A stretch of DNA of 64,000 bases from Patescibacteria group bacterium. Its GTDB lineage: Bacteria > Patescibacteriota > Patescibacteriia > UBA1558 > GWA2-36-10. Location: contig JBAYIR010000001.1 in the NCBI GenBank assembly GCA_041665505.1, forward strand, positions 220,392 through 284,391, written 5' to 3'. The notes under the pieces were generated by a model. It did no database searches. It was not told the origin of the DNA and was given only the letters and a program-made list of their open reading frames with translations. How positions within the stretch are numbered: position 1 is the stretch's first letter; every line of letters starts with the position of its first letter. The position numbers were made by a program, and so were the translations under genes. Positions 2,028 through 55,722 of this stretch are shown piece by piece.

Positions 2028-4490
2028 ATGAGTGATTATTTTATTATTGGCATAATTTTATTAATTGGGATTATTATTCTCATAGCTTTGTTTTATTTTG
2101 CTTTCAACCATTCTAGAAGTAGAAGTAATAAAAATCTTCAATCCGAAGTGTTGTTATTAAAAATTCCCAAATATATAAAATCGGAAAAGGAAGAACACAG
2201 CAAAGAATTTGTCCAAGCTGAATTAGGGCAAGTAGAAAACTTATTTGCCGCTTTGAGTGGTCTTAAAGCGCAGAGAAAATTTTTTGGTAGGCGGACAGAT
2301 ATTTTTTCTATAGAGATTGTCTCAGTTGGAGGCTTCACGAATTTTTATGTAGCCACACCAAGTGTTTATAGAGATTTTTTGATTCAACAATTGCAAGCTG
2401 TTTATCCAAAAATATATTTTGAACCAGTTAGTGATTATAATATTTTTCAAGCACAAGGTCATATTAAAGCTGGTGCCCTTAATTTTAAGGGTGATTATAG
2501 TCTGCCAATTAAAACTTATAAGTATTTTGAAAATGATCCTTTAGAGGCGGTCACTAATTCCCTAAGCAAATTAACTGTCAATGAAGGTGCGGCTGTCCAG
2601 TATGTATTTCGGTCGGCCCCTGCTAAATGGCATGCTCGGGGTAGAAAAATAGCACAACAAATGCACCGTGGTATGACTTATAGAGAGGCTATAAAGAAAA
2701 TTGGCGGCGGCGGTTTCTGGGGTAATACGTCTCAGGTATTCAAATTTTTTGCTAGTTTTTTGACTACCAAAGATCCAAAAAAAACTGACCCAGATCAAAA
2801 CGAGCCACCACAGCCAATGTCAGCTATGGAGCAAGAGCGAGCTAAAGGTATGGAAGAAAAAACTTCTAAATCAGGGCTAGAGGTAAATATTAGAGTGGTA
2901 GTTTCTACAGCTAATCCAGAGAGATCTAAAGCTATTTTAAATGATATTTTAAATAGTTATAGTCAATATAATATTTATGAGTTTGGTAATAGTTTTAGAG
3001 CCTATATTCCTAGTAAAGCTGACTCTTATGTAGAACATTTTATTTATCGTCATTTTCTTCCTCAAAAAAGTATGCTCTTAAACTCTGAGGAAATGACTAG
3101 TGTGGTTCATTTGCCTTTAACGACTAGTGAAACACCAAATATTGCCTGGCTGGAAGCGGCTAAAGCAGCTCCACCGGTTAATATGCCGACAGAGGGAGTA
3201 ATACTTGGCAAGAGTTTTTATCGTGGCAGGGAAACTTTGGTTCGTATCAAAGATGCCGATCGTCGTCGACATATGTATGAAATTGGTCAAACTGGTACTG
3301 GTAAATCAGTATTTTTGGAAAGTCTAGCCATTCAAGACATTGCTAATGGTAAAGGGGTTTGTGTATTAGATCCACATGGTGATTTAGCTGAAACTATTTT
3401 ATCTCATGTGCCAAAAGAAAGAGCAGAAGATGTGATTTATTTTGATCCCTCAGATGTTCAAAGGCCAATGGGTATTAATATGTTGGAATTTGAAACAGAT
3501 GAACAAAAAACTTTTGCCATCAATGAAATGATAGCTATTTTTGATAAGTTGTATGATCTCAAAGCTACTGGTGGTCCAATGTTTGAACAATACATGAGAA
3601 ATACCATGTTGCTTTTGATGGATGATAAGGAAAACCAAACCACTTTATTGGAAATTCCAAAAGTTTTAGCTGACGAGAGTTATAGAAAACAAAAATTGGC
3701 TAAAGTAAAAAATTATTTAGTCAAGGACTTTTGGGAAAAAGAAGCACAAAAAGCAGGTGGTGATGCGGCCTTAGCTAATATGGTACCTTATATTACTTCC
3801 AAATTAACTCCTTTTATAGCCAATGACACTATCCGTCCTATAATATCTCAAAGTAAATCGGCTTTCAATTTTAGGAAGGCTATGGACGAAAATAAAATTA
3901 TTATTATTAATCTATCTAAAGGTAAAATTGGTGAGATGAATAGTAGTCTCTTGGGAATGATAATGATTGGTAAAATACTTTTTGCAGCCCTTAGCCGAGT
4001 AGACCTACCAGAAGAGAAAAGACAAGATTTTTATCTTTATATTGATGAGTTTCAAAATTATATTACGGAGAGTATTTCTATTATTTTATCTGAGGCTAGA
4101 AAATATAAATTAAATTTAATATTAGCTCATCAATTTTTAGCACAGTTGGTTAAATCTAAAGATAGAGATACTGGAGTAAAAGATGCTGTCTTTGGTAACG
4201 TCGGCACATTGATTGCCTATCGAATTGGAGTAGAGGATGCTGAGGTAATAGCCAAACAAATGGCGCCAGTTGTGACGCAATATGATTTGGTTAACATGCC
4301 AAAATATACTTGTTATATAAAATTATTAATAGATAACCAAAATCCACCTGCTTTTAATTTTAATCCTATTATGCCAGAAAAAGGCAATTATGAATTGGCT
4401 AAGGCTATCAAAGAGTTGTCACGCCTTAAATATGGTCGGGATAGGCTTATAGTGGAAAATGAAATAAAACAAAGAATGTCTATAATCTAA
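2028..4490 (+). CDS. VirB4/VirD4-like conjugation/T4SS-type P-loop ATPase (FtsK-HerA superfamily) with an N-terminal TM domain. This is the fused form of the split pair at 16264-19538
   Basis: There is an N-terminal TM helix. Walker A is RRRHMYEIGQTGTGKS, followed by a VLDPHGDL motif, Walker B LYIDEFQNY and AHQ. The N-terminal 400 aa aligns with ORF 16264-17754 and the C-terminal part with ORF 17757-19538. Confidence 0.7.
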   Translation: MSDYFIIGIILLIGIIILIALFYFAFNHSRSRSNKNLQSEVLLLKIPKYIKSEKEEHSKEFVQAELGQVENLFAALSGLKAQRKFFGRRTDIFSIEIVSVGGFTNFYVATPSVYRDFLIQQLQAVYPKIYFEPVSDYNIFQAQGHIKAGALNFKGDYSLPIKTYKYFENDPLEAVTNSLSKLTVNEGAAVQYVFRSAPAKWHARGRKIAQQMHRGMTYREAIKKIGGGGFWGNTSQVFKFFASFLTTKDPKKTDPDQNEPPQPMSAMEQERAKGMEEKTSKSGLEVNIRVVVSTANPERSKAILNDILNSYSQYNIYEFGNSFRAYIPSKADSYVEHFIYRHFLPQKSMLLNSEEMTSVVHLPLTTSETPNIAWLEAAKAAPPVNMPTEGVILGKSFYRGRETLVRIKDADRRRHMYEIGQTGTGKSVFLESLAIQDIANGKGVCVLDPHGDLAETILSHVPKERAEDVIYFDPSDVQRPMGINMLEFETDEQKTFAINEMIAIFDKLYDLKATGGPMFEQYMRNTMLLLMDDKENQTTLLEIPKVLADESYRKQKLAKVKNYLVKDFWEKEAQKAGGDAALANMVPYITSKLTPFIANDTIRPIISQSKSAFNFRKAMDENKIIIINLSKGKIGEMNSSLLGMIMIGKILFAALSRVDLPEEKRQDFYLYIDEFQNYITESISIILSEARKYKLNLILAHQFLAQLVKSKDRDTGVKDAVFGNVGTLIAYRIGVEDAEVIAKQMAPVVTQYDLVNMPKYTCYIKLLIDNQNPPAFNFNPIMPEKGNYELAKAIKELSRLKYGRDRLIVENEIKQRMSII

Positions 4491-4596: not shown

Positions 4597-5181
4597 ATGT
4601 CAAAAGAAAAAAAAATTAAAGATTTAGAAGCTTTATTATATAATTTAGAATTAGAACTCACCAAGACTAAACAAGTTTTAGGTGAGTTAAGTGGTAAAAA
4701 CTCTTCTGAAGCGGCCAATTATAGTTTGAAGGCGGCTAGAGTCGGTAAGCAGATAGATGGTGATGAAGGTTTGGTAGTAGAAGGAGTTTTCAATGGCCAG
4801 ATTATGATTGGTCCTGATGGCAAACAATATAGTGTACCAGCTAATTATGCTTCTAAATCTAAATTAGTAGAAGGGGACATTCTAAAGTTAACTATAAATT
4901 TTGATGGTTCATTTATTTTTAAACAAATATCGCCAGTAGAAAGAACGAGATTGGTAGGCCACCTCATTAAAGATAAGAGTACTAATGAGTTTGTGGTTTT
5001 GGCTGGAGACAAGATATATAAGGTTCTAATGGCCTCAGTAACCTATTTTAAAGGCGAAGAGGGTGATGAGGCAGTTATATTGGTCTCCAAAGATTCTGAT
5101 AGTAATTGGGCCGCTGTAGAGAATATAATTAAAACTAATCATAGAGGGATTTCTACTGACGAATTGGATTTTAGTCTTTGA
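4597..5181 (+). CDS. Hypothetical protein with an N-terminal coiled coil
   Basis: ORF of 194 aa between the ATPase gene and dnaX. No family was recognised. Confidence 0.4.
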   Translation: MSKEKKIKDLEALLYNLELELTKTKQVLGELSGKNSSEAANYSLKAARVGKQIDGDEGLVVEGVFNGQIMIGPDGKQYSVPANYASKSKLVEGDILKLTINFDGSFIFKQISPVERTRLVGHLIKDKSTNEFVVLAGDKIYKVLMASVTYFKGEEGDEAVILVSKDSDSNWAAVENIIKTNHRGISTDELDFSL

Positions 5182-5184
5182 TTT

Positions 5185-6684
5185 ATGTCAGAAGTCATCT
5201 ATAGAAAATATCGGCCAAAATTTTTTAAAGAGGTTATCGGTCAAAAACCGATAAAAATTACTCTAGAAAATGAAATAGCTAGTGGGAATTTGGCCCATGC
5301 TTATTTATTTGTTGGACCACGGGGCACTGGTAAAACTACCTTGGCTCGTCTTTTTGCTCGTTCTTTAAATTGTAGCAATCGTCAAAATAAAGAATCTGAA
5401 CCCTGTAATGAATGCGAAAATTGTAAAGTCATATTAGCTGGACGTTCTATGGATATTTTAGAAATTGATGCTGCTTCTCACACTGGAGTAGATAATGTCC
5501 GTGATAATATTATTGCCAATTCACAAATACCACCTTTTAGTAGTAATGGTTATAAAGTTTTTATTATTGATGAGGTGCACATGTTATCTAAATCTGCTTT
5601 CAATGCTCTGCTTAAAACTTTAGAAGAACCACCCAAAAGAATAATCTTTATTTTAGCCACCACCGAAGTACACAAAGTACCAGAGACTATTATTTCTCGT
5701 TGTCAGAGATTTGATTTTAAAAAAATACCAATCAAGGATATCGTCAAAAGAATGACTGAGATTGTGGAATGGGAAAAAATTGAAATTTCAGAAAAAATTT
5801 TATCAGAAATAGCTCGTCGTAGTGAGGGCTGTCCCAGAGATGCCGAATCATTGCTAGGTCAAATAATTTCTATTAGTGGTGGTAAGGTCAGTGATGAGTT
5901 AGCTTCTTTGGTTTTACCAAATAGCAATTGGCAAGCCATTGACGCTTTGACAGAGGCTTTAAAAGTAAAAAATTTACCAACTGCTCTTAACCAAATTAAT
6001 AAATTAGTAGAAGAGGGGGCAGATTTGAGCATTTTTATTGCTGATTTCATAGATTATATTAGACAGATAATGCTGTACAAAATTATTGGGCCTAGTTTTG
6101 CTCTTGATTTTGATGATAACTTAACAAATTCTATAAAAAAACATGCTCAAGATTTTTTATTAGAAGATATATCAAACTTGCTTAACATAATATTGGATAA
6201 ATTAGCCATTAAAGAAACCATAATTGATCAACTACCTTTAGAATTGGCTTGTGTAGAATTTTTATTGATTCAAGCAGATAATGAAGAAAAAAAGATTGAT
6301 AATTTTTTGGAAACAAAAGATAAAAAAAAAATTAATTTAAATATTCAAGATTTAGAAAAATTACAAAATAATTGGTCAAAAGTAGTGGAACGGGCTAAAC
6401 CATTTAATCATTCTTTGTCAGCTATGTTACAAACTAGCCACCCTTTGACAATGGAGGGAAATTTACTTACCATTGGCTTGGAATATGATTTCCATAAAGA
6501 ACAACTAGATAAATCAGCTAGCAAGGAAAATTTAATAGCCATTTTTAGTGATATATTAGGTAAAAAAATAAATTTAGCTTTTGTTATTGATGCCGATTAT
6601 AAACAAAACCATCAAAGTTTTAAAGGCAAAAGTGAAAGCGGAGTAGATCAAATTTTAGATACTTTTGGTGGAGAAATGTTATAA
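5185..6684 (+). CDS. dnaX: DNA polymerase III subunit gamma/tau
   Basis: N-terminus YRPKFFKEVIGQ, Walker A GPRGTGKTT, zinc module CNECENC and an SRC box ISRCQRF. Confidence 0.9.
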   Translation: MSEVIYRKYRPKFFKEVIGQKPIKITLENEIASGNLAHAYLFVGPRGTGKTTLARLFARSLNCSNRQNKESEPCNECENCKVILAGRSMDILEIDAASHTGVDNVRDNIIANSQIPPFSSNGYKVFIIDEVHMLSKSAFNALLKTLEEPPKRIIFILATTEVHKVPETIISRCQRFDFKKIPIKDIVKRMTEIVEWEKIEISEKILSEIARRSEGCPRDAESLLGQIISISGGKVSDELASLVLPNSNWQAIDALTEALKVKNLPTALNQINKLVEEGADLSIFIADFIDYIRQIMLYKIIGPSFALDFDDNLTNSIKKHAQDFLLEDISNLLNIILDKLAIKETIIDQLPLELACVEFLLIQADNEEKKIDNFLETKDKKKINLNIQDLEKLQNNWSKVVERAKPFNHSLSAMLQTSHPLTMEGNLLTIGLEYDFHKEQLDKSASKENLIAIFSDILGKKINLAFVIDADYKQNHQSFKGKSESGVDQILDTFGGEML

Positions 6685-6689
6685 ACCAT

Positions 6690-6763
6690 TCGGGGATCGT
6701 CTAATGGTAGGACAACGGGTTCTGGTCCCGTCAATTGGGGTTCGAGTCCCTATCCCCGAGCCA
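6690..6763 (+). tRNA. tRNA-Gln (anticodon CUG), 74 nt, with encoded CCA
   Basis: Manual fold. Acceptor TCGGGGA/TCCCCGA, D-stem GTCT/GGAC, anticodon stem ACGGG/CCCGT, loop TTCTGGT (anticodon CTG), T-arm TGGGG-TTCGAGT-CCCTA, discriminator G, then CCA. Confidence 0.75.
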
Positions 6764-6839
6764 ATATTTTATACTTCTTTATTTACAATAATTATACTTT
6801 GGTGTATAATATATTATGTACAATACGTATTATTTGTTG

Positions 6840-6886
6840 CCCTTAATATTATTGGAGTAGCAAATATCGCTAATAAAATATTATAA
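6840..6886 (+). pseudogene. 3' remnant of a third VirB2-like pilin gene copy (encodes ...VANIANKIL*)
   Basis: About 45 nt, together with the following 36-nt spacer, are near-identical to the 3' end and downstream spacer of the two intact pilin genes. Compare 6851-6922 with 7243-7315. Confidence 0.6.
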
Positions 6887-6922
6887 TTTATAATTAACTA
6901 ATAAATAGTAATTCATAATACT

Positions 6923-7279
6923 ATGAAAAAAATATTAACATTCGCTTTGTTATTTCTACCTAGCGTAGCTTCAGCTCAAATAACCGTCAATGACTGGGGA
7001 TACAATGAGTTAGCTCAAGGCAATATCGCCTTAGGTACCAGAGACTTAAGATCAACAATTGCTGGAGTTATAAACATTGTTCTAGGTTTCTTAGGTGTTT
7101 TAACTACTGTGATTATTCTCTTTGGTGGTTTTAAATGGATGACTTCTTATGGTGATTCTTCTAAAGTTGATGAAGCTAAAAAAATGATTGGAGCTGGTGT
7201 CATTGGTCTAGTAATCGTATTGACCGCTTATGCCATTTCCAGATTCGTATTAGTAAATATCGCTAATAAAACATTATAA
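6923..7279 (+). CDS. VirB2/TrbC-like T4SS pilin candidate, tandem copy 1
   Basis: 118 aa. Signal peptide ending ASAQ, then two hydrophobic helices (IAGVINIVLGFLGVLTTVIILFGG and GAGVIGLVIVLTAYAI). This is the VirB2 topology. Confidence 0.55.
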   Translation: MKKILTFALLFLPSVASAQITVNDWGYNELAQGNIALGTRDLRSTIAGVINIVLGFLGVLTTVIILFGGFKWMTSYGDSSKVDEAKKMIGAGVIGLVIVLTAYAISRFVLVNIANKTL

Positions 7280-7315
7280 TTTATAATTAACTAATAAATA
7301 GTAATTCATAATACT

Positions 7316-7669
7316 ATGAAAAAAATATTAACATTCGCTTTGTTATTTCTACCTAGCCTAGCTTCAGCTCAAAATGTCAATGACTGGGGATACAATGAGT
7401 TAGCTACTGGTAATATCGCTCTAGGTACCAGAGACTTAAGATCGACAATTGCTGGAGTTATAAATATTGTTCTAGGTTTCTTAGGTGTCTTAACCACTTT
7501 GATTATTTTGTTAGGTGGTTTCAAATGGATGACTTCTTATGGCAGTTCTGACAAAGTTGATGAAGCTAAAAAAATGATTGGCGCTGGTGTCATTGGTCTA
7601 GTAGTGGTATTAACTGCTTATGCCATTTCCAGATTCGTATTAGTAAATATTGCTAATAAAACAATCTAA
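7316..7669 (+). CDS. VirB2/TrbC-like T4SS pilin candidate, tandem copy 2
   Basis: 117 aa and about 85-90% identical to copy 1. The two sit within a 393-nt direct repeat unit. Confidence 0.55.
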   Translation: MKKILTFALLFLPSLASAQNVNDWGYNELATGNIALGTRDLRSTIAGVINIVLGFLGVLTTLIILLGGFKWMTSYGSSDKVDEAKKMIGAGVIGLVVVLTAYAISRFVLVNIANKTI

Positions 7670-7685
7670 TAGTATTTATTTTTTT

Positions 7686-7716
7686 AAAAAGCATCCTGCT
7701 AAGGGATGTTTTTTAA
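7686..7716 (+). terminator. Intrinsic terminator after the pilin tandem
   Basis: Hairpin GCATCC-tgctaa-GGGATG followed by TTTTTT. Confidence 0.5.
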
Positions 7717-7743
7717 TTTTATTTATAATGCTATAATGAATAC

Positions 7744-8430
7744 ATGCAAATTCCTAAACATATTGGCATAATATTAGATGGTAATCGTCGCTTTGCTAGG
7801 GCTAGAGGATTACCGACTTTTGAAGGTCACCGTCAAGGTTTTACTAATCTAAAAAAAATAGCCAGACATGCTTTTAAAAGCGGTGTGGAAGTTTTGACAG
7901 TTTATGCTTTTTCTATAGAAAATTGGAAAAGAGATAAAGAAGAAGTGGCTTATTTAATGGATTTGTTTAGAATGTTTGTTAATAAAGAAATTGACATTTT
8001 AGCTAAAGAAGGTGTCAAGGTAAATTTTTTTGGTAGGAGAGAGGATTTTGATAAAGATTTGCAAGAATCTATGCTTAGGGTATTAGAAAAAACTAAAAAC
8101 GGTAATAAAGGTATTTTAAATATTTGTTTAAGTTACGGAGGCAGAGATGAAATAGTTAGAGCTTTTAAAAAAATATTAGCCCAAGGAATTAAAGCCAGTG
8201 AGGTAAATGAAGATTTAATAAATAAAAATATAGACTCAGCTGGCTTGCCAGATCCAGATCTGATTATACGGACCTCTGGTGAACAACGTTTATCAGGTTT
8301 TTTGACTTGGCAGTCAGTTTATAGTGAGTTTTACTTTCCCAAGAAAGACTGGCCAGATTTTACTCCACAGGATTTAGATTTAGCTCTAGAGGAATATAGT
8401 CAGAGACAGAGGCGTTTTGGGGCAAATTAA
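7744..8430 (+). CDS. uppS: Isoprenyl transferase (undecaprenyl diphosphate synthase)
   Basis: HIGIILDGNRRFA plus conserved C-terminal motifs (IRTSGEQRLSGFLTWQ). Confidence 0.88.
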   Translation: MQIPKHIGIILDGNRRFARARGLPTFEGHRQGFTNLKKIARHAFKSGVEVLTVYAFSIENWKRDKEEVAYLMDLFRMFVNKEIDILAKEGVKVNFFGRREDFDKDLQESMLRVLEKTKNGNKGILNICLSYGGRDEIVRAFKKILAQGIKASEVNEDLINKNIDSAGLPDPDLIIRTSGEQRLSGFLTWQSVYSEFYFPKKDWPDFTPQDLDLALEEYSQRQRRFGAN

Positions 8431-17756: not shown

Positions 17757-19538
17757 ATGGAAAACAGAATTACAACTTTTGCTGAAACAAATTATAGAAA
17801 TTCCAATGTTAGATTTGGCATAAAAACTGATGACCGTCGTCGTCATATGTATTTTATTGGTAAAACTGGTATGGGTAAGTCTACAGTTTTGGAAAATATG
17901 ATTATTCAAGATATTCAAGACGGTAAGGGAGTTTGTGTAGTAGATCCTCACGGCGATTTAGTAGAGAAGGTCATTAATTTTGTGCCCTCTAGTCGTATTA
18001 ATGATGTAATATATTTTAATCCAGCTGACTTGGATTTTCCCATTGGTTTTAATGTTTTGGAAAAAGTAGATGCTAGCCAAAGGCATTTGGTTGTATCGGG
18101 ACTAATTGGTGTTTTTCAGAAGATTTGGGCTGATTCATGGGGTCCTAGATTGGAATATGTACTCCATCATGCTATTTCAGCTCTCTTAGAGTATCCTGGC
18201 TCCACTTTGCTTGGTATTATGAGAATGTTGACCGACAAAGCTTTTAGAAAAAGAGTAGTGGAAAAATTGTCTGATCCAGTAGTTAAAGCCTTTTGGATAG
18301 AAGAATATTCTAAATATCCAGATAGGTTTCAATCCGAAGCTATTGCTCCTATTCAAAATAAAGTTGGTCGTTTCCTTTCCTCAGCTTTGATTAGAAATAT
18401 ATTAGGGCAAGTCAATTCATCTTTTTCTATGAGAGATATCATGGATGGCCAAAAAATATTACTTTTGAATCTGTCTAAAGGTAGAGTAGGTGAAGATAAT
18501 TCAGCACTACTGGGGGCGATGATGATTACCAAAATTCAATTAGCCGCCATGAGTAGAGTTGATACTCCGGAAGAAGAAAGAAAAGATTTTTATCTATATG
18601 TAGATGAATTTCAAAATTTTGCTACAGATTCTTTTGCTAATATTTTATCTGAGGCTAGAAAATATAAACTTAATCTTATTATTGCTCACCAGTATATTGA
18701 ACAAGTAGAAGAAAATATTGCAGCAGCTGTTTTTGGTAATGTTGGTACTTTGATAGCTTTCAGAGTCGGTGCGGCTGATGCTGAATTTTTGGAAAAAGAA
18801 TTTTTTCCAACTTTTACTCAAGAGGATTTGGTCAATCTTTCCAAGTTTGAAATTTATATCAAACTAATGATTGATGGTGTAACCTCAGAAGCTTTTTCAG
18901 CTAGAACCTTGCCACCAGTAGCGATGACGGAAGAATTTATAGACATTAAAGAAAAAATAATCAGGGTGACTAGAGAAAGATATGCCAAACCAAGAGCAGT
19001 TATAGAAGATAAAATTATTCGTTGGTCAGAAGGCAGAGGAGAAGATGATATAGATAAGATTCCTGATAGATTAATCAATGAAGCTGTTATCGATAAGTCT
19101 CTCGCTAAAGACATAGCCCCTGTGAGTAGAGAAAATTCAGCTAGTAAAGCCAAGAAAAAAAGAAGAAAATCCAAAGACACTGGTTTTAGTAAAGATGTTA
19201 TTTGCGATTTGTGTGGTAAACAAACTACTATAAATTTTGATCCCGATCCAACTAAACCTATTTATTGCAGAGAGTGTCTAGACCTTTCTAGAGCTGGTAA
19301 AGTTCCGCCACCATCAAGTATTAAAATAATTTCTGATGACGGGCCAGTTGAAGAATTTACTTCTCTAGCTGATGCTTTGAAAGGCAGAAAAGTGACTGTC
19401 AAAAAAACTGAAAATTTAGAAAGTAAGTCAGAAGAGGAAGAAAATATAAAACAGAATGAAGATTTAAGCTCAGAAAAAATTAAAAAAGATGACCAGTCGG
19501 CTGAAGATTTAAAGCCCGGTCAAGTAATAAAATTTTAA
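17757..19538 (+). CDS. ATPase half of a split VirB4/VirD4-like P-loop ATPase, with a C-terminal acidic/Lys-rich tail and a CxxC...CxxC zinc ribbon
   Basis: RRRHMYFIGKTGMGKS, VVDPHGDL, LYVDEFQNF, AHQ. The C-terminus has CDLCGK...CRECL. The start lies 2 nt after the stop of the upstream ORF. Confidence 0.7.
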   Translation: MENRITTFAETNYRNSNVRFGIKTDDRRRHMYFIGKTGMGKSTVLENMIIQDIQDGKGVCVVDPHGDLVEKVINFVPSSRINDVIYFNPADLDFPIGFNVLEKVDASQRHLVVSGLIGVFQKIWADSWGPRLEYVLHHAISALLEYPGSTLLGIMRMLTDKAFRKRVVEKLSDPVVKAFWIEEYSKYPDRFQSEAIAPIQNKVGRFLSSALIRNILGQVNSSFSMRDIMDGQKILLLNLSKGRVGEDNSALLGAMMITKIQLAAMSRVDTPEEERKDFYLYVDEFQNFATDSFANILSEARKYKLNLIIAHQYIEQVEENIAAAVFGNVGTLIAFRVGAADAEFLEKEFFPTFTQEDLVNLSKFEIYIKLMIDGVTSEAFSARTLPPVAMTEEFIDIKEKIIRVTRERYAKPRAVIEDKIIRWSEGRGEDDIDKIPDRLINEAVIDKSLAKDIAPVSRENSASKAKKKRRKSKDTGFSKDVICDLCGKQTTINFDPDPTKPIYCRECLDLSRAGKVPPPSSIKIISDDGPVEEFTSLADALKGRKVTVKKTENLESKSEEEENIKQNEDLSSEKIKKDDQSAEDLKPGQVIKF

Positions 19539-24994: not shown

Positions 24995-25507
24995 TTATTT
25001 TGGTACACTCACACAAGAAAGAGAGGTATAACCCTCACCATCACATTCATCTATACGAGGCTGGGTCTCTAAATTAAACTGTAAAAGATAATAATTTTTA
25101 GGAGAACCAATAATCTTTTGGTACAAATATAAATAAATAACTTGATTTGGTTCATTTTGATTAACTACAGCATTAATTGGATCGCGTGGCATAGCATCTA
25201 AACCAGGTAGCCATTGATTATCTATAGGGTGGTTATAATCAGCACTGATACAGCCACTTATACTTAGTAGACCAGAACATCTGCCATCTTCGGCAGGATA
25301 ATCATCGCCTGTAGTATAATTATAAATTTCCAAAGCTTTACGAATTTGAGTAATATCGCTTAGTCTTCTAGCATCTCTAGCCTTAGCTTTAAAATGGTTT
25401 AAATTAACTACTGCCGCAGTAGAAATAATACCAATAATAGCAATTACTACCAATAATTCCACTAAAGTAAAACCTAGTTTTTGTCTTTTAAAATGGTATA
25501 AAAGCAT
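24995..25507 (-). CDS. Type IV pilin/pseudopilin (prepilin with N-terminal methylation motif)
   Basis: KLGFTLVELLVVIAIIGIIS class III signal and hydrophobic helix. C-terminal Cys pair. Confidence 0.8.
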   Translation of the reverse strand: MLLYHFKRQKLGFTLVELLVVIAIIGIISTAAVVNLNHFKAKARDARRLSDITQIRKALEIYNYTTGDDYPAEDGRCSGLLSISGCISADYNHPIDNQWLPGLDAMPRDPINAVVNQNEPNQVIYLYLYQKIIGSPKNYYLLQFNLETQPRIDECDGEGYTSLSCVSVPK

Positions 25508-26152: not shown

Positions 26153-26833
26153 TCAGACGTCCGCTATGATGCGGTCGCCGTATTCACGACGGAAGGAGTT
26201 GATTTGCAGAAGCAGAGCCTCCAAGAGATGTTCTCCAACATAGATTCGAGTTGGAGACTGCCAGTGTGAGGACTGCTCCATGAGCTCCAAGAGGTATCTG
26301 GCCAAAGGCACATATTCGCGAATGGTTTCGTTTATTTGCTTGATTTGAAACTCTGGGTCAGCCTTGAATCCCAGAGTGCGAAGATTGGCTACCCGATCAG
26401 CTAGTTTGAGAATAATTACCTCAATACTGCCAGCTTCTCGCATTTGACGGATATAAGAAAGCTTATCCCGCTTATAATCTTCGCCTTTACTCAAAAGTTC
26501 AACCCAATAGCGGACTGTGGAGCCAAAAAGCCTCTCAATCTTGTCCAAGCTGAGTTTGTCAGCCTCTACAGCATCATGAAGCCAAGTCACAACATTCATC
26601 TGCCAGTCGTCTTTGATACCCAGTTCGCAGCTGACTAAATCAGCTACATCACGCAGGTGTTTGAAGTAGTAGGTGACACCATCACCACGATACTCACCAC
26701 GGTGAGCCCATTTCCCCAGACGGTAGGCGCAGACCATCAAGCGTGCTTCTTCAGGGTCATTGATGTAACCCTGAAAACGAACCAAATAGCGTTCGTAGCC
26801 GCGCATTTCCTCAGGTTTTTTTCTGACTTTCAT
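26153..26833 (-). CDS. HD-domain (p)ppGpp hydrolase, SpoT/Mesh1-type small alarmone hydrolase
   Basis: LHDAVED and KLADRVANLRTL match the RelA/SpoT HD hydrolase motifs. Strong SD AAGGGGGT before the internal Met (MKVRKK), so the start was trimmed from the ORF-track coordinate 26869. Distinctly higher GC than the genome. Confidence 0.7.
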   Translation of the reverse strand: MKVRKKPEEMRGYERYLVRFQGYINDPEEARLMVCAYRLGKWAHRGEYRGDGVTYYFKHLRDVADLVSCELGIKDDWQMNVVTWLHDAVEADKLSLDKIERLFGSTVRYWVELLSKGEDYKRDKLSYIRQMREAGSIEVIILKLADRVANLRTLGFKADPEFQIKQINETIREYVPLARYLLELMEQSSHWQSPTRIYVGEHLLEALLLQINSFRREYGDRIIADV

Positions 26834-26947
26834 GTTCGTTACCCCCTTGTTGACGTGAATTGTAAACAACCAAAGTTAATGTCAATAGTTATACTATAGT
26901 CCAAAATTAATGTCAAACATATATTTGTTGATAAATTAGCTAAAATA

Positions 26948-26977
26948 TTGACATAATATCTTTTTTTGTTCTATTAT
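26948..26977 (+). promoter_or_regulatory. Sigma-70 promoter (TTGACA-18-TATTAT)
   Basis: Consensus boxes upstream of an ORF-free GC-rich unit. Confidence 0.55.
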
Positions 26978-26983
26978 TTAAGG

Positions 26984-27346
26984 GTATCTAGAAGTTCCAT
27001 TTTCAAAATCCATCGTGGTTGTAGAAGTCCTAGGAGGGGAAGAAAGAAGCGACTCAATTAGGGAAGATGACCATGATGGTAGACCATCAAACTACGAAGT
27101 TAAGTAGAGGCGCCTGAACGTCTGCCAAACGACGGCCCTCTCCAGCCAATTAACTTCCTGCTTTGATGGTCATCCTTGGATGACTGCTGCTGTGAGCATC
27201 ACGTGTGAGTATCACGCCGAGCTCTCGCCTTCGGCATAGGTGGTGTTTTGCTCAACCCGAGCTTAAGTTCTAAGTCCTCAGCCGCTTGTAGCAGCAGCAT
27301 CCATGGATGAGCCCCCGGTCCGTACTGGGGGCTCGCTTTCTTTTTT
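26984..27346 (+). ncRNA. Candidate structured ncRNA A (about 360 nt), class unknown
   Basis: No ORF of 60 aa or more on either strand despite high GC. Long-range complementarities include CCTTGGATGACTGCTGCTG with CAGCAGCATCCATGG, and GATGACCAT with ATGGTCATC. There is a UUCG-type tetraloop (GCCTTCGGC). It ends in a strong terminator: a 10-bp GC stem at 27309-27334 followed by TTTCTTTTTT. Confidence 0.5.
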
Positions 27347-27359
27347 AAAATTTATACTA

Positions 27360-27388
27360 TTGACATTAACTATAAAATAAGCTATAAT
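27360..27388 (+). promoter_or_regulatory. Sigma-70 promoter (TTGACA-17-TATAAT, perfect consensus)
   Basis: Located immediately after the terminator of unit A. Confidence 0.6.
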
Positions 27389-27394
27389 ATATAA

Positions 27395-27647
27395 TCCTTT
27401 CGTTTTTTGTAGCCATGAGCTAATAAGCTAATGGGTCGCCGGTAGGTAACTCCAGGTCGTTGTAAGGGCACCCTCCTTCAATGACTGCCACCACGCCTGT
27501 CGGCGACCCAGTTAATAGTTGGACCTTGGGCTGGGAAGCATATTCCCCAGCACCACTAGCCGAGCTGAGCTGAGCGGAAAACTCAGTCCAAGGTCCACCA
27601 CCTTTTGCCCTGCCAGAAGATCACTTCGGCAGGGTCTTCAATTTGTC
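27395..27647 (+). ncRNA. Candidate structured RNA B (about 250 nt); possibly a cis-regulatory leader of alaS or an independent sRNA
   Basis: 9-bp helices GGGTCGCCG/CGGCGACCC and GGACCTTGG/CCAAGGTCC, plus internal hairpins (CTGGGAA-gcata-TTCCCAG and CTGAG-cggaaaa-CTCAG). Ends in the terminator-like hairpin CCCTGCC...GGCAGGG followed by a U-rich tail. About 85 nt upstream of alaS. Confidence 0.45.
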
Positions 27648-27732
27648 AAAATTAATTGACTTTTTAGCTTAAATTTATTAAAATATATAAGTATTTACTA
27701 TAAAAGTAGTAAATTTTTTCCAATAAACAATT

Positions 27733-54765: not shown

Positions 54766-55722
54766 CTATTTCTTAAGGGGATGAAAATCTGTATGCATTT
54801 TTTCTGCATACCTATCACTAGCGTGTACATAACGCGTGGTAGTATCCAATGACTCATGACCTAGTAGTATTTGAATAGCTGCTGGATTAGCTCCATTTTC
54901 AGCCAAATAAGTAGCAAAGGCATGACGGATAGAGTGAGCTGAAAATGGAATGTTAATAGACAATAACTCGCGATAACGTTTTATTTTTGATTGTAAATAA
55001 TTGGTAGATATTTTTTTGTGCTTATCAGCGTTGTTTAATCCACGGTAAGGAATAAACAGATAAGGAGTAACATCATGACGAGTACTAAGATAATCTTTAA
55101 TGTGTTTTGTAGCTCGCGGAGTCAAATAAACAAAACGTTGTTTTTTGCCTTTACCCATCACATAGATACGCCCAGTATTATCTAATTGCTCACGCCTTAA
55201 GGAAAGTAATTCTGATATACGCATACCTGTAGCAAAAAGAGTTTCTAGCATGGCACGATTACGAAGTTTAATAGTCGGATCAGTTTCAAATTTTGTAGGA
55301 GCTTCTATTAACCTGATAAGCTCATGCATCTCTGGCACTTGGCCATATTTTTTTTCAGTCTTAAGTAACTTAACGGCATCAGCACTAATAGGAGTCTTAT
55401 AATCTACGTCCATCAAAAATTTTAAATAAGATCTCAGAGCTGACAAAATACGATTGATACTATGGCTAGATAATTTTTTTTCACCCGGCTCGCTCAAGGC
55501 AGTCTCCCTAGAAGTAGAGGAGAGGTAGGCCTTAAATTTGATAATAGACCTTTTGGTAAGATTTTTAAAATCAGTCTTAATATCGCTGGCTAAAAAATTT
55601 TCAAAAGTGTTTAAGTCTCTTTCATAATTGTAGACCGTCTCACTAGAGTAGTTATTGGATTGGATATTCTCCAAATACTCATCCAAGAGAGGAAGCTGAT
55701 ACTTTTTATTGGTTTTTATCAT
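54766..55722 (-). CDS. Tyrosine recombinase XerC/XerD family
   Basis: C-terminal catalytic R...HxxR...Y motifs (HSIRHAFATYL, LGHESLDTTTRY). Confidence 0.8.
   Translation of the reverse strand: MIKTNKKYQLPLLDEYLENIQSNNYSSETVYNYERDLNTFENFLASDIKTDFKNLTKRSIIKFKAYLSSTSRETALSEPGEKKLSSHSINRILSALRSYLKFLMDVDYKTPISADAVKLLKTEKKYGQVPEMHELIRLIEAPTKFETDPTIKLRNRAMLETLFATGMRISELLSLRREQLDNTGRIYVMGKGKKQRFVYLTPRATKHIKDYLSTRHDVTPYLFIPYRGLNNADKHKKISTNYLQSKIKRYRELLSINIPFSAHSIRHAFATYLAENGANPAAIQILLGHESLDTTTRYVHASDRYAEKMHTDFHPLKK

What the first reader, a model, noticed from the sequence alone, without database searches (positions are those of the whole stretch)
6690..7720. tRNA-Gln followed directly by a truncated remnant and two intact tandem VirB2/TrbC-like pilin genes in a 393-nt direct-repeat array
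The two pilin-like ORFs are about 85-90% identical and are embedded in near-perfect 393-nt repeat units with identical spacers and RBS regions. A 3'-terminal fragment of a third unit (...VANIANKIL*) lies 75 nt after the tRNA 3' end. Three facts together suggest the pilin locus is dynamic: copy-number variation of the major T4SS pilus subunit, a tRNA 3' flank that is a classic integration or recombination hot spot, and amino-acid differences concentrated in the predicted exposed segments. The likely mechanisms are gene conversion or deletion for surface variation. This is relevant for an episymbiotic CPR lifestyle.
Basis: partly seen in the sequence, partly recalled or inferred. Interest (0 to 1): 0.6.

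Follow-up and report, generated by a model that had tools for sequence, protein, structure and literature searches.

The report
Tandem duplicated T4SS pilin genes
Two nearly identical copies of a small secretion-system pilin gene sit side by side after a tRNA gene in a tiny Patescibacteria genome; pilin arrays like this are already known in these bacteria, so it is a tidy but ordinary example of a gene family that keeps duplicating, losing copies and homogenising them.

Summary
tRNA-Gln(CTG) lies at 6690-6763. Two intact ORFs (6923-7279, 118 aa; 7316-7669, 117 aa) form a 393/390-nt tandem repeat, 91% identical in nt and 92% in aa. A 29-nt copy of the gene's 3' end (6858-6886, 27/29) plus an identical 36-nt spacer precedes gene 1, starting 94 nt after the tRNA, not 75. 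Both proteins pass Pfam's T4SS_pilin (PF18895) cut-off and show a signal peptide plus a two-helix hairpin.

The locus is dynamic: the conserved dnaX-tRNA-Gln-[pilin]-uppS site holds 1, 2 or 3 pilin genes in related genomes. Paralogues within a genome stay much closer (dS 0.15-0.24) than copies in different species (dS 0.6-2). This indicates concerted evolution by gene conversion, or repeated duplication.

Three points are not supported:
- The tRNA is an ancestral neighbour in nine relatives, with no integrase or att repeat, so it is not an integration scar.
- The copies are under purifying selection (dN/dS 0.23).
- Their ten differences are not significantly concentrated in exposed segments.

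The pair looks like one promoter-to-terminator unit, which fits extra dosage better than surface variation. VirB2-like pilin arrays in Patescibacteria are already published, so this is a new member of a known kind.

The parts
2028..4490 (+). 820-aa VirD4/TrwB/HerA-like (T4CP-like) ATPase. It is a syntenic neighbour of the pilin site, not part of the repeat.
   Evidence: Pfam DUF87 (E = 1.4e-7), TrwB_AAD_bind (E = 4.8e-7) and TraG-D_C; DUF8128. It is conserved upstream of dnaX-tRNA-pilin in L004, L005, L006, L012 and L061.
5185..6684 (+). dnaX (DNA polymerase III tau/gamma), the upstream boundary of the conserved site.
   Evidence: Pfam domains listed; synteny.
6690..6763 (+). tRNA-Gln (CTG), an ancestral neighbour of the pilin site.
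   Evidence: The same tRNA follows dnaX in L004, L005, L006, L012, L055 and L061 (CTG), in L030 (TTG) and in L153.
6782..6810 (+). Sigma-70-like promoter TTTACA-17-TATAAT (inferred).
   Evidence: It matches 11 of 12 consensus positions. A TTTACA-N17-TATAAT/TATACT element sits at the equivalent place before the first pilin gene in L004, L005, L006, L012 and L153.
6811..6857 (+). Unique 47-nt leader segment of unknown origin, absent from single-copy relatives.
   Evidence: It has no detectable similarity to the pilin gene. In L004 and L006 the -10 box lies 36-39 nt from the ATG, against 112 nt here.
6858..6886 (+). Relic of a pilin gene 3' end (last 9 codons and the stop codon; ...ANIANKIL*).
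   Evidence: It matches gene 1's 3' end at 27 of 29 nt, with a sharp boundary at 6857/6858.
6887..6922 (+). Spacer/leader copy 1 (36 nt), carrying the conserved TAGTAATTCATAAT motif.
   Evidence: It is 36/36 identical to 7280-7315. The motif is conserved upstream of type-A pilin genes in L004, L005 and L006 and in L151, L153 and L154.
6923..7279 (+). Pilin gene 1 (118 aa): signal peptide ending ASA|Q, then two long hydrophobic helices joined by a polar, lysine-rich turn.
   Evidence: PF18895 scores 33.1 bits against a cut-off of 26.6. The AlphaFold2 model (pLDDT 75) has helices at 2-16, 42-73 and 79-117. NCBI annotates it as MFA6466454.1, a hypothetical protein.
7280..7315 (+). Spacer/leader copy 2 (36 nt). 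No terminator or consensus promoter was detected between the genes.
7316..7669 (+). Pilin gene 2 (117 aa), 92% identical to gene 1.
   Evidence: PF18895 scores 31.6 bits and TrbC gives E = 1.6e-4. Against gene 1, dS = 0.245, dN = 0.056 and dN/dS = 0.23.
7684..7716 (+). Intrinsic terminator closing the pilin unit (inferred).
   Evidence: A hairpin followed by a T run. Equivalent terminators follow the last pilin gene in L004, L005, L006, L012 and L061 and in L151 and L154.
7744..8430 (+). uppS (undecaprenyl-diphosphate synthase), the downstream boundary of the conserved site.
   Evidence: Pfam Prenyltransf; synteny.

Best explanation
This is a chromosomal transcription unit carrying two paralogous VirB2/TrbC-like pilin genes (Pfam T4SS_pilin) in a Komeilibacteria-related member of the Patescibacteria. 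It sits at a conserved pilin site between tRNA-Gln and uppS.

Shown:
- Both genes are intact, 92% identical and under purifying selection.
- The site holds 1-3 pilin genes in related genomes.
- Close relatives also carry tandem pairs with the same 33-40-nt junction.
- Paralogues within a genome are far more alike than copies in different species.
- Upstream of gene 1 there is a 65-nt copy of the gene-end plus spacer junction.

Inferred:
- The array arose by tandem duplication. It is kept similar by gene conversion or unequal recombination between copies, and also with a second pilin locus elsewhere in the genome.
- The 29-nt relic is a scar of a further rearrangement. Most simply, a three-copy array lost almost all of its first copy. 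Alternatively, a break upstream of gene 1 was repaired using the gene 1-gene 2 junction as template.
- The two genes are co-transcribed from the promoter at 6782-6810 and end at the terminator at 7684-7716, so the main effect of the duplication is roughly doubled dosage of a structural subunit, with minor sequence variation.
- Each product is exported by Sec and cleaved after ASA (residue 19). It then sits in the membrane as a two-helix hairpin and is polymerised or used by the VirB4-type T4SS, which is encoded outside this window. That system is essential for epibiotic growth in the one Patescibacterium tested.
- The tRNA is simply an old neighbour.
For: Family:
- Both proteins pass the PF18895 cut-off and give weaker TrbC hits. 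Of 36 relatives, 36 hit PF18895 and 23 hit PF04956, best E = 1.1e-8.
- NCBIfam NF045849 (Mbov_0395 pilin-like conjugal transfer protein) gives E = 2e-8. A Firmicutes megaplasmid homologue lies about 4 kb upstream of a VirB4-like ATPase gene.
- The AlphaFold2 model is a signal helix plus a two-helix hairpin.

Array.

Selection: dS = 0.245, dN = 0.056.

Conserved synteny and variable copy number:
- One copy: L004, L006, L030, L055, L061, L040 and L041.
- Two copies: L012, L014, L098, L152 and L153.
- Three copies: L005.
- Sources.

Concerted evolution:
- In the tree, paralogues group by genome while the inter-helix loops group by type.
- In L005 a type-B and a type-A copy are 85-89% identical in nt in the flanks but 60% in the loop.
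- In L153 the tandem pair has dS = 0.15. In L154, the 71 nt of an upstream copy's 3' end are identical to the downstream gene's own 3' end.
- Between-species pilin dS is 0.64-2.05, and uppS dS between the window and its sister species L154 is 1.03.

Operon: the promoter and terminator are conserved in relatives.

Literature:
- 441 VirB2 arrays of 2-11 genes were found in 383 Patescibacteria assemblies (PMC12102498).
- The pilin array and the T4SS are essential in Southlakia epibionticum (PMC12857230, citing Wang 2023).
Against: - No VirB4, VirB6 or VirB3 gene lies in the 64-kb window. The link to a T4SS therefore rests on family membership and the literature.
- Fold searches return only generic helical hairpins, not solved VirB2/TraA pilins. 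The PDB sequence search is negative.
- TrbC PF04956 scores for these two proteins are below Pfam's cut-off.
- No pilus made of such proteins has been seen in any Patescibacterium.
- Co-transcription and the dosage benefit are inferred from consensus motifs only.
- A shared ancestral duplication plus conversion cannot be strictly separated from repeated independent duplications, because the contigs of the closest relatives (L151, L154) break inside the array.
Confidence: 0.75

Rival explanations
1. One reading: the array is a surface-variation device. Copy-number change and gene conversion between units alter exposed parts of the pilus so that an epibiont can adapt to or evade hosts, and the tRNA flank acts as the recombination hot spot.
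For: - Copy number at the site differs among species.
- Conversion tracts exist among paralogues.
- The relic shows a past rearrangement.
- One short contig from another assembly (L003) carries an 88-nt deletion inside gene 1.
- Six of the ten differences lie in the N-terminal, loop or C-terminal parts.
- The literature suggests host-range versatility for divergent VirB2 arrays (PMC12102498).
Against: - dN/dS is 0.23, and the helix changes are conservative.
- The enrichment in exposed parts is not significant (about p = 0.15 by my estimate).
- The conversion seen makes copies more alike, not more different.
- There are no promoterless donor cassettes.
- The tRNA is conserved synteny with no att repeat or nearby integrase.
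- L003 also has a frameshift in the essential uppS gene, so it may be an error-prone contig.
Confidence: 0.12
2. The two proteins are not pilus subunits. They are small two-helix membrane components, either an accessory part of a monoderm conjugation-type channel or envelope proteins unrelated to a T4SS. The duplication would then be a neutral or dosage event in such a gene.
For: - No T4SS core gene lies within 64 kb.
- The second pilin locus of relatives sits among Wzx/Wzy, nucleotidyl-transferase, solute-binding-protein and DUF2079 envelope genes, not next to virB4.
- Structure searches are non-specific.
- The closest named family outside Pfam is only called 'pilin-like'.
- Gram-positive T4SSs normally lack pili (PMC12857230).
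Against: - The PF18895 and TrbC HMM matches hold across the whole family.
- A Firmicutes homologue lies in a VirB4-containing conjugation cluster.
- A published survey found pilin genes near virB4 in 1135 Patescibacteria assemblies, and the pilin array is essential together with the T4SS in S. epibionticum (PMC12102498).
Confidence: 0.1
3. The tandem structure or the relic is an assembly artefact of a repeat.
For: Contigs from other samples break inside or next to the array (L149, L151, L154), which shows that assemblers struggle with it.
Against: - The copies differ at about 9% of positions, so they can be resolved.
- The 350-kb ENA contig and an independent JGI contig (L003) agree base for base on the tRNA, the relic, gene 1 and gene 2.
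- Relatives show the same architecture.
Confidence: 0.03

Closest known systems
VirB2-like pilin arrays of Patescibacteria (Quinonero-Coronel et al. 2025, PMC12102498; the essential pilin array of Southlakia epibionticum, Wang et al. 2023 as cited in PMC12857230)
   Same: They share the same Pfam families (PF18895 and PF04956), the same phylum, two or more adjacent pilin genes on the chromosome, and frequent location away from virB4.
   Different: Published arrays are highly divergent, with a mean of 25% and a maximum of 54% identity. This pair is 92% identical, lies at a conserved dnaX-tRNA-Gln-uppS site, and shows concerted evolution. In my own sample of 139 loci, 13 of 1065 within-locus pairs were at least 80% identical, so such young or homogenised pairs recur.
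TrbC/VirB2/TraA conjugative pilins of Gram-negative T4SS (Pfam PF04956)
   Same: They are small proteins with a cleaved signal peptide and two hydrophobic helices joined by a short basic loop. HMM similarity is E = 1e-3 to 1e-4 for these two proteins and down to 1e-8 for relatives.
   Different: The scores here are below the Pfam cut-off. The signal peptide is a short, ordinary Sec type rather than the long VirB2/TraA leader. There is no evidence of cyclisation or acetylation. The host is a monoderm, and no adjacent virB operon is present.
Mbov_0395 family pilin-like conjugal transfer proteins of Mollicutes and Firmicutes ICEs (NCBIfam NF045849)
   Same: The match covers the two-helix core (E = 2e-8; residues 42-111 against profile positions 9-78 of 80). 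This family belongs to monoderm conjugation modules that carry VirB4-like ATPases, the class from which the Patescibacteria T4SS is thought to derive (PMC12102498).
   Different: The score (33.7 bits) is below the equivalog cut-off of 40. Identity to the Pontibacillus protein is 35% over half the length. Here the genes are chromosomal housekeeping-like genes, not part of a mobile element.
Tandem VirB2 paralogues in Bartonella and Anaplasma T4SS loci (cited in PMC12102498)
   Same: They show tandem amplification of the major pilin gene in a host-associated bacterium.
   Different: Those paralogues are thought to serve antigenic variation. Here the copies are nearly identical and under purifying selection.

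Membership tests
Pfam PF18895 T4SS_pilin | HMM score at or above the gathering cut-off (26.6 bits). | tested here: met
   The scores are 33.1 and 31.6 bits. All 36 aligned relatives match.
TrbC/VirB2 pilin (Pfam PF04956) | HMM score at or above the gathering cut-off (27.9 bits). | tested here: not met
   The scores are 19.3 and 22.3 bits (E = 1.4e-3 and 1.6e-4). Of 36 relatives, 23 match at E <= 1e-3, best 1.1e-8. The relationship is therefore supported at superfamily level only.
TrbC/VirB2 pilin (Pfam PF04956) | Small pre-protein with a cleavable signal peptide and two hydrophobic helices joined by a short polar or basic loop. | tested here: met
   The sequence has MKK, a hydrophobic core and ASA|Q. 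The AlphaFold2 model has helices at 42-73 and 79-117 with the turn at 74-78 and lysines at 71, 81, 86 and 87. Cleavage itself is predicted, not shown.
TrbC/VirB2 pilin (Pfam PF04956) | Structural match to solved VirB2/TraA pilins. | tested here: inconclusive
TrbC/VirB2 pilin (Pfam PF04956) | Encoded with T4SS core genes (virB4, virB6, virB3 and others). | tested here: not met
   No VirB4 or VirB6 gene lies in the 64-kb window. Only two T4CP-like ATPases are present, at 2028-4490 and 17757-19538. The rest of the genome was not available.
TrbC/VirB2 pilin (Pfam PF04956) | Polymerises into an extracellular pilus. | not testable with these tools
   This needs microscopy or biochemistry.
Patescibacterial VirB2-like pilin array (PMC12102498) | Two or more pilin genes in tandem, or separated by one non-pilin gene, in a Patescibacteria genome. 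| tested here: met
   Two adjacent PF18895 genes. The source is annotated 'Patescibacteria group bacterium', and the nearest relatives are Komeilibacteria MAGs.
Patescibacterial VirB2-like pilin array (PMC12102498) | Members of an array are highly divergent (reported mean 25%, maximum 54% identity). | tested here: not met
   The pair is 92% identical. This is a descriptive feature of the published set rather than a definition.
NCBIfam NF045849 Mbov_0395 pilin-like conjugal transfer protein | Score at or above the equivalog cut-off (40 bits). | tested here: not met
   The scores are 33.7 and 29.6 bits.
tRNA-targeted integrated element (genomic island) | An integrase next to the tRNA, a direct repeat of the tRNA 3' end at the far boundary, and absence of the insert from related genomes. 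| tested here: not met
   The tRNA 3' end has no repeat in 64 kb. The nearest integrase-family gene is XerC/D-like, at 54766-55722. The dnaX-tRNA-Gln-pilin-uppS order is conserved in relatives, and composition is unremarkable.
Cassette-based antigenic variation (pilE/pilS-like) | One expression locus plus promoterless partial donor copies, with variation concentrated in exposed regions and elevated dN/dS. | tested here: not met
   Both copies are complete. The only partial copy is a 29-nt relic. dN/dS is 0.23, and the differences are spread along the protein.

The most novel reading that the evidence does not exclude
The dnaX-tRNA-Gln-uppS site and a second, four-gene pilin locus elsewhere in these genomes exchange the helix-coding parts of their pilin genes by segmental gene conversion. 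The inter-helix loop stays specific to each type: SYGSS..KVDEAKK, MMTSGGNA..G.. or SQGNT..KVDEAKK. The helices of all isoforms in a cell would then stay compatible for packing into one filament or channel, while loop variants are kept apart. The window shows a lineage that lost the type-B isoform, leaving the relic, and doubled type A. This would be a rule for how heteromeric T4SS pili evolve in Patescibacteria.
Probability: 0.25. Interest if true: 0.5.

Novelty: new member of a known kind. Interest (0 to 1): 0.3.

Why it matters
VirB2-like pilins and the T4SS are among the few functions known to be essential for the epibiotic life of Patescibacteria, and what they do is unknown. This locus adds three modest points.
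- Pilin genes also occupy a conserved housekeeping site (dnaX-tRNA-Gln-uppS) far from virB4.
- Copy number there changes between species.
- Paralogues are kept similar by conversion. Near-identical pairs therefore exist alongside the very divergent arrays already described, for which the published maximum is 54% identity.

None of this changes the current picture. It gives a defined promoter-to-terminator unit and a set of natural variants (one, two or three copies; types A and B) that could guide experiments on dosage and isoform function.

Tried and rejected
- **Extending the remnant upstream of 6858.** Local alignment of 6811-6857 to the gene, and an HMM search of all three frames of 6764-6886, found nothing above chance. 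The remnant is therefore only 29 nt plus the spacer.
- **tRNA-integration model.** It was rejected because the tRNA 3' end has no repeat and synteny is conserved.
- **A promoter inside the repeat unit that would explain why the relic is retained.** The scan found no consensus promoter in 6858-6922 or 7251-7315. By eye there are only two TATAAT boxes with poor -35 matches.
- **Population-level copy-number variation.**
  - Exact look-ups of pil1, pil2, uppS and dnaX found only the source contig, one short variant contig (L003) and contigs broken at the array.
  - The metagenome scan found no conspecific locus.
  - L003's 88-nt deletion in gene 1 comes with a 1-nt deletion in the essential uppS gene, so I do not treat it as firm evidence.
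- **Whether the relic-type structure is general.** In the other high-identity pilin pairs with usable upstream sequence, the upstream homology stops inside the spacer.
- **Rfam search of the GC-rich, ORF-free region at 26.9-27.7 kb.** There were no matches.
Full report
**1. Observation**

ARAGORN and Rfam both place a tRNA-Gln (CTG) at 6690-6763 on the + strand. Downstream lie two ORFs, 6923-7279 (118 aa) and 7316-7669 (117 aa).

Tandem Repeats Finder reports a single array at 6858-7670, period 390, 2.1 copies, 91% matches. The repeat finder splits it into a 123-nt part at 98% identity (6858-6980 vs 7251-7373, spacing 393) and a 295-nt part at 90% (spacing 390, because gene 2 lacks one codon).

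A pairwise alignment shows three things:
- The 36-nt spacers before each gene are identical.
- The 29 nt before the first spacer (6858-6886) match the last 29 nt of gene 1 at 27 positions.
- Similarity ends abruptly at 6857/6858.

The 23-nt core of this repeat occurs exactly three times in the window. Nothing in 6811-6857 resembles the gene.

An independent JGI contig (L003) is identical to the window over 1.6 kb, apart from an 88-nt deletion inside gene 1 and a 1-nt deletion in uppS. The arrangement is therefore real and not an assembly product.

- The proteins are 92% identical, not 85-90%.
- The units are 91% identical, not near-perfect.
- The remnant begins 94 nt, not 75 nt, after the tRNA.
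- No Shine-Dalgarno motif is present.

**2. What the genes encode**

Both proteins pass the gathering cut-off of Pfam PF18895 (T4SS_pilin) and give weaker, sub-threshold matches to PF04956 (TrbC/VirB2). When 36 family members are scanned, all hit PF18895 and 23 hit PF04956, best E = 1.1e-8.

NCBIfam's nearest model is the Mbov_0395 family of pilin-like conjugal transfer proteins (E = 2e-8, below its cut-off). The only plasmid-borne relative found by tblastn is such a gene in a Pontibacillus megaplasmid. It lies about 4 kb upstream of a VirB4-like ATPase and a peptidoglycan hydrolase.

The sequence has a typical Sec signal peptide ending ASA|Q. The AlphaFold2 model (pLDDT 75) shows two long helices (42-73 and 79-117) joined by a short polar turn flanked by lysines. 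Searches against solved structures return only generic helical hairpins, so the fold is compatible with VirB2/TraA but does not prove it.

The database search found 286 relatives, annotated where named as Komeilibacteria, Parcubacteria or Patescibacteria proteins. The source is a 350-kb contig of an NCBI MAG labelled Patescibacteria group bacterium.

**3. Surroundings**

The window has no VirB4, VirB6 or VirB3 gene. It does have two T4CP-like ATPases: 2028-4490 (with DUF8128) and 17757-19538.

The order orf156-orf159-ATPase-orf194-dnaX-tRNA-Gln-[pilin]-uppS-beta-propeller-methyltransferase-ddl is conserved in related genomes. tRNA-Gln follows dnaX in eight of them and in L153.

The tRNA 3' end has no second copy in the window. 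Composition around the locus is ordinary. The only integrase-family gene is XerC/D-like and lies 47 kb away. The tRNA is therefore an ancestral neighbour, not the mark of an insertion.

A strong promoter-like site (TTTACA-17-TATAAT, 6782-6810) lies between the tRNA and the relic. A hairpin plus T-run terminator lies at 7684-7716, and nothing comparable lies between the genes. The same promoter and terminator arrangement brackets the pilin gene or genes in relatives. I therefore infer a single promoter-to-terminator unit.

A motif just upstream of the ATG (TAGTAATTCATAAT) is conserved across species. This explains at least part of the perfect identity of the two spacers.

**4. Dynamics of the site**

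The number of pilin genes between tRNA-Gln and uppS varies:

| Copies | Loci |
|---|---|
| 1 | L004, L006, L030, L055, L061, L040, L041 |
| 2 | the window, L012, L014, L098, L152, L153 |
| 3 | L005 |

Two loop types occur at this site:
- Type A: ..GGFKWMTSYGSS.KVDEAKK..
- Type B: ..MMTSGGNA.K..G..

Their arrangement differs between genomes:
- L005, L012 and L152 have B followed by A.
- L014 has A followed by B.
- The window and its closest relatives have A-A.

These genomes also have a second locus with three or four pilin paralogues, about 110, 117 and 124 aa plus, in most, a ~210-230-aa one. Its central gene has an SQGNT loop and is the closest homologue of the window's genes (85-87% aa). 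That locus sits among envelope-polysaccharide genes, not next to virB4.

In a tree of these pilins, paralogues group by genome while their loops group by type. At nucleotide level:
- The type-B and type-A genes of L005 are 85-89% identical in the flanks but 60% in the loop.
- The locus-1 and locus-2 genes of one genome (bin69) are 92% identical in helix 1.

Three close relatives of the window also carry tandem type-A copies with a 33-40-nt junction:
- L153: the pair is 94% identical in aa, with dS = 0.15.
- L154: this is the sister species (uppS dS = 1.03). The 71 nt of the upstream copy's 3' end are identical to the downstream gene's own 3' end.
- L151: a pilin 3' end precedes the gene.

Within-genome dS (0.15-0.24) is far below between-species dS (0.64-2.05). 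The simplest reading is an array older than these species that is kept homogeneous by gene conversion or unequal exchange. Repeated independent duplications at the same junction are the alternative.

**5. The pair in the window**

Between the two genes, dS = 0.245, dN = 0.056 and dN/dS = 0.23. Both genes are therefore maintained by purifying selection.

The ten differences are distributed as follows:
- residue 15 (signal peptide);
- residues 20/21 and 32 (mature N-terminus);
- residues 63 and 67 (helix 1: V/L and F/L);
- residues 78 and 80 (turn);
- residue 98 (helix 2: I/V);
- residue 118 (C-terminal residue).

Six of ten fall in segments that make up about 39% of the protein. By my binomial estimate this is not significant (p of about 0.15). 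There is no sign of diversifying selection or of donor cassettes.

**6. The relic**

Three copies of the gene-end motif cannot come from one simple duplication of a single gene, so at least one more event occurred. There are two candidates:
- (a) A three-copy array lost nearly all of its first copy by a deletion with a sharp end at 6857/6858.
- (b) A break upstream of gene 1 was repaired using the gene 1-gene 2 junction as template.

I cannot separate these. Single-copy relatives have only 36-39 nt between the -10 box and the ATG, and L153 has 9 nt, against 112 nt here. The 47 + 29 nt are therefore extra. Among the other high-identity pilin pairs with usable upstream sequence, none shows upstream homology reaching into gene-end sequence.

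**7. Comparison with what is known**

Quinonero-Coronel et al. 2025 (PMC12102498) found 441 VirB2 arrays of 2-11 genes in 383 Patescibacteria assemblies, with within-array identity averaging 25% and reaching 54% at most. They noted that pilin genes are often not near virB4.

The pilin array and the T4SS are essential for the epibiotic growth of Southlakia epibionticum (PMC12857230, PMC11665869). The function of the system is unknown.

The window is thus another instance of a described kind. It differs in three ways:
- The copies are 92% identical.
- The site is a conserved housekeeping location.
- Concerted evolution is evident.

In my sample of 139 loci, within-locus pairs average 39% identity. 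However, 13 of 1065 pairs are at least 80% identical and 4 are about 90% or more. Near-identical pairs therefore recur and are not unique to this genome.

**8. Verdict**

- The pilin assignment is supported at family level.
- 'Dynamic locus' is supported in the sense of gene birth, loss and homogenisation.
- The tRNA hot-spot and surface-variation ideas are not supported.
- The most likely function of the duplication is increased dosage of a structural T4SS subunit from one strong transcription unit.
- Novelty is low (a new member of a known kind) and interest is about 0.3.

Noticed in passing
window 26940-27650 (+): This ORF-free stretch has 47-52% GC in a 32% GC genome and lies between an HD-domain gene and alaS. 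It reads as two promoter-to-terminator units, about 26985-27346 and about 27394-27645. Both fold far better than shuffled sequence (z = -6.1 and -5.9). No Rfam family matches at E <= 0.1, and ARAGORN finds no tmRNA. They are candidate unclassified structured RNAs.
   Followed up: partly
window 4597-5181 (+): This 194-aa protein has no Pfam or NCBIfam match. It lies between the T4CP-like ATPase and dnaX and is 88-90% identical across species in which DnaX is 76-86% and UppS 70-76% identical. That is unusually strong conservation for an unknown protein.
   Followed up: no
window 2028-4490 (+) and 17757-19538 (+): Two VirD4/TrwB-like (T4CP-like) ATPases are present with no VirB4 nearby. The first has an N-terminal DUF8128 region. 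The second has a C-terminal CxxC-x17-CxxC zinc finger and follows a 496-aa ORF with no family match.
   Followed up: partly
L003 (JGI 3300037810), equivalent to window 7050-7137 and 8005: This short contig is identical to the window except for an 88-nt deletion inside pilin gene 1 (GAT microhomology at the junction) and a 1-nt deletion in uppS. It is either a defective minority variant or an error-prone contig.
   Followed up: partly
L004-L018, L084-L099 (related genomes): Relatives have a second, conserved pilin locus: a solute-binding protein, then pilins of about 210-230 (absent in some), 110, 117-121 and 124-150 aa, then DUF2079. It lies among Wzx/Wzy-type envelope genes. Its central pilin shares helix-coding sequence with the dnaX-site pilins of the same genome but keeps its own loop (SQGNT).
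   Followed up: partly
L154 105-482 (P0121): The sister species' pilin has a 7-residue insertion that duplicates the end of the signal peptide (LPSVAS-TLLPSPVSA), which creates two possible cleavage sites.
   Followed up: no
window 7733-7746: uppS appears to be leaderless. A TATAAT box ends 6 nt before its ATG, and there is no Shine-Dalgarno motif.
   Followed up: no
window 24995-25507 (-): A type IV pilus prepilin with an N-terminal methylation motif (PF07963) is present. The genome therefore also encodes the unrelated T4P system.
   Followed up: no
window 26153-26869 (-): This 238-aa ORF has 44-48% GC, well above the genome average, and its sequence looks HD-domain-like by eye (WLHDAVEAD; not run against Pfam). 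Together with the GC-rich ORF-free flanks it may be horizontally acquired.
   Followed up: no
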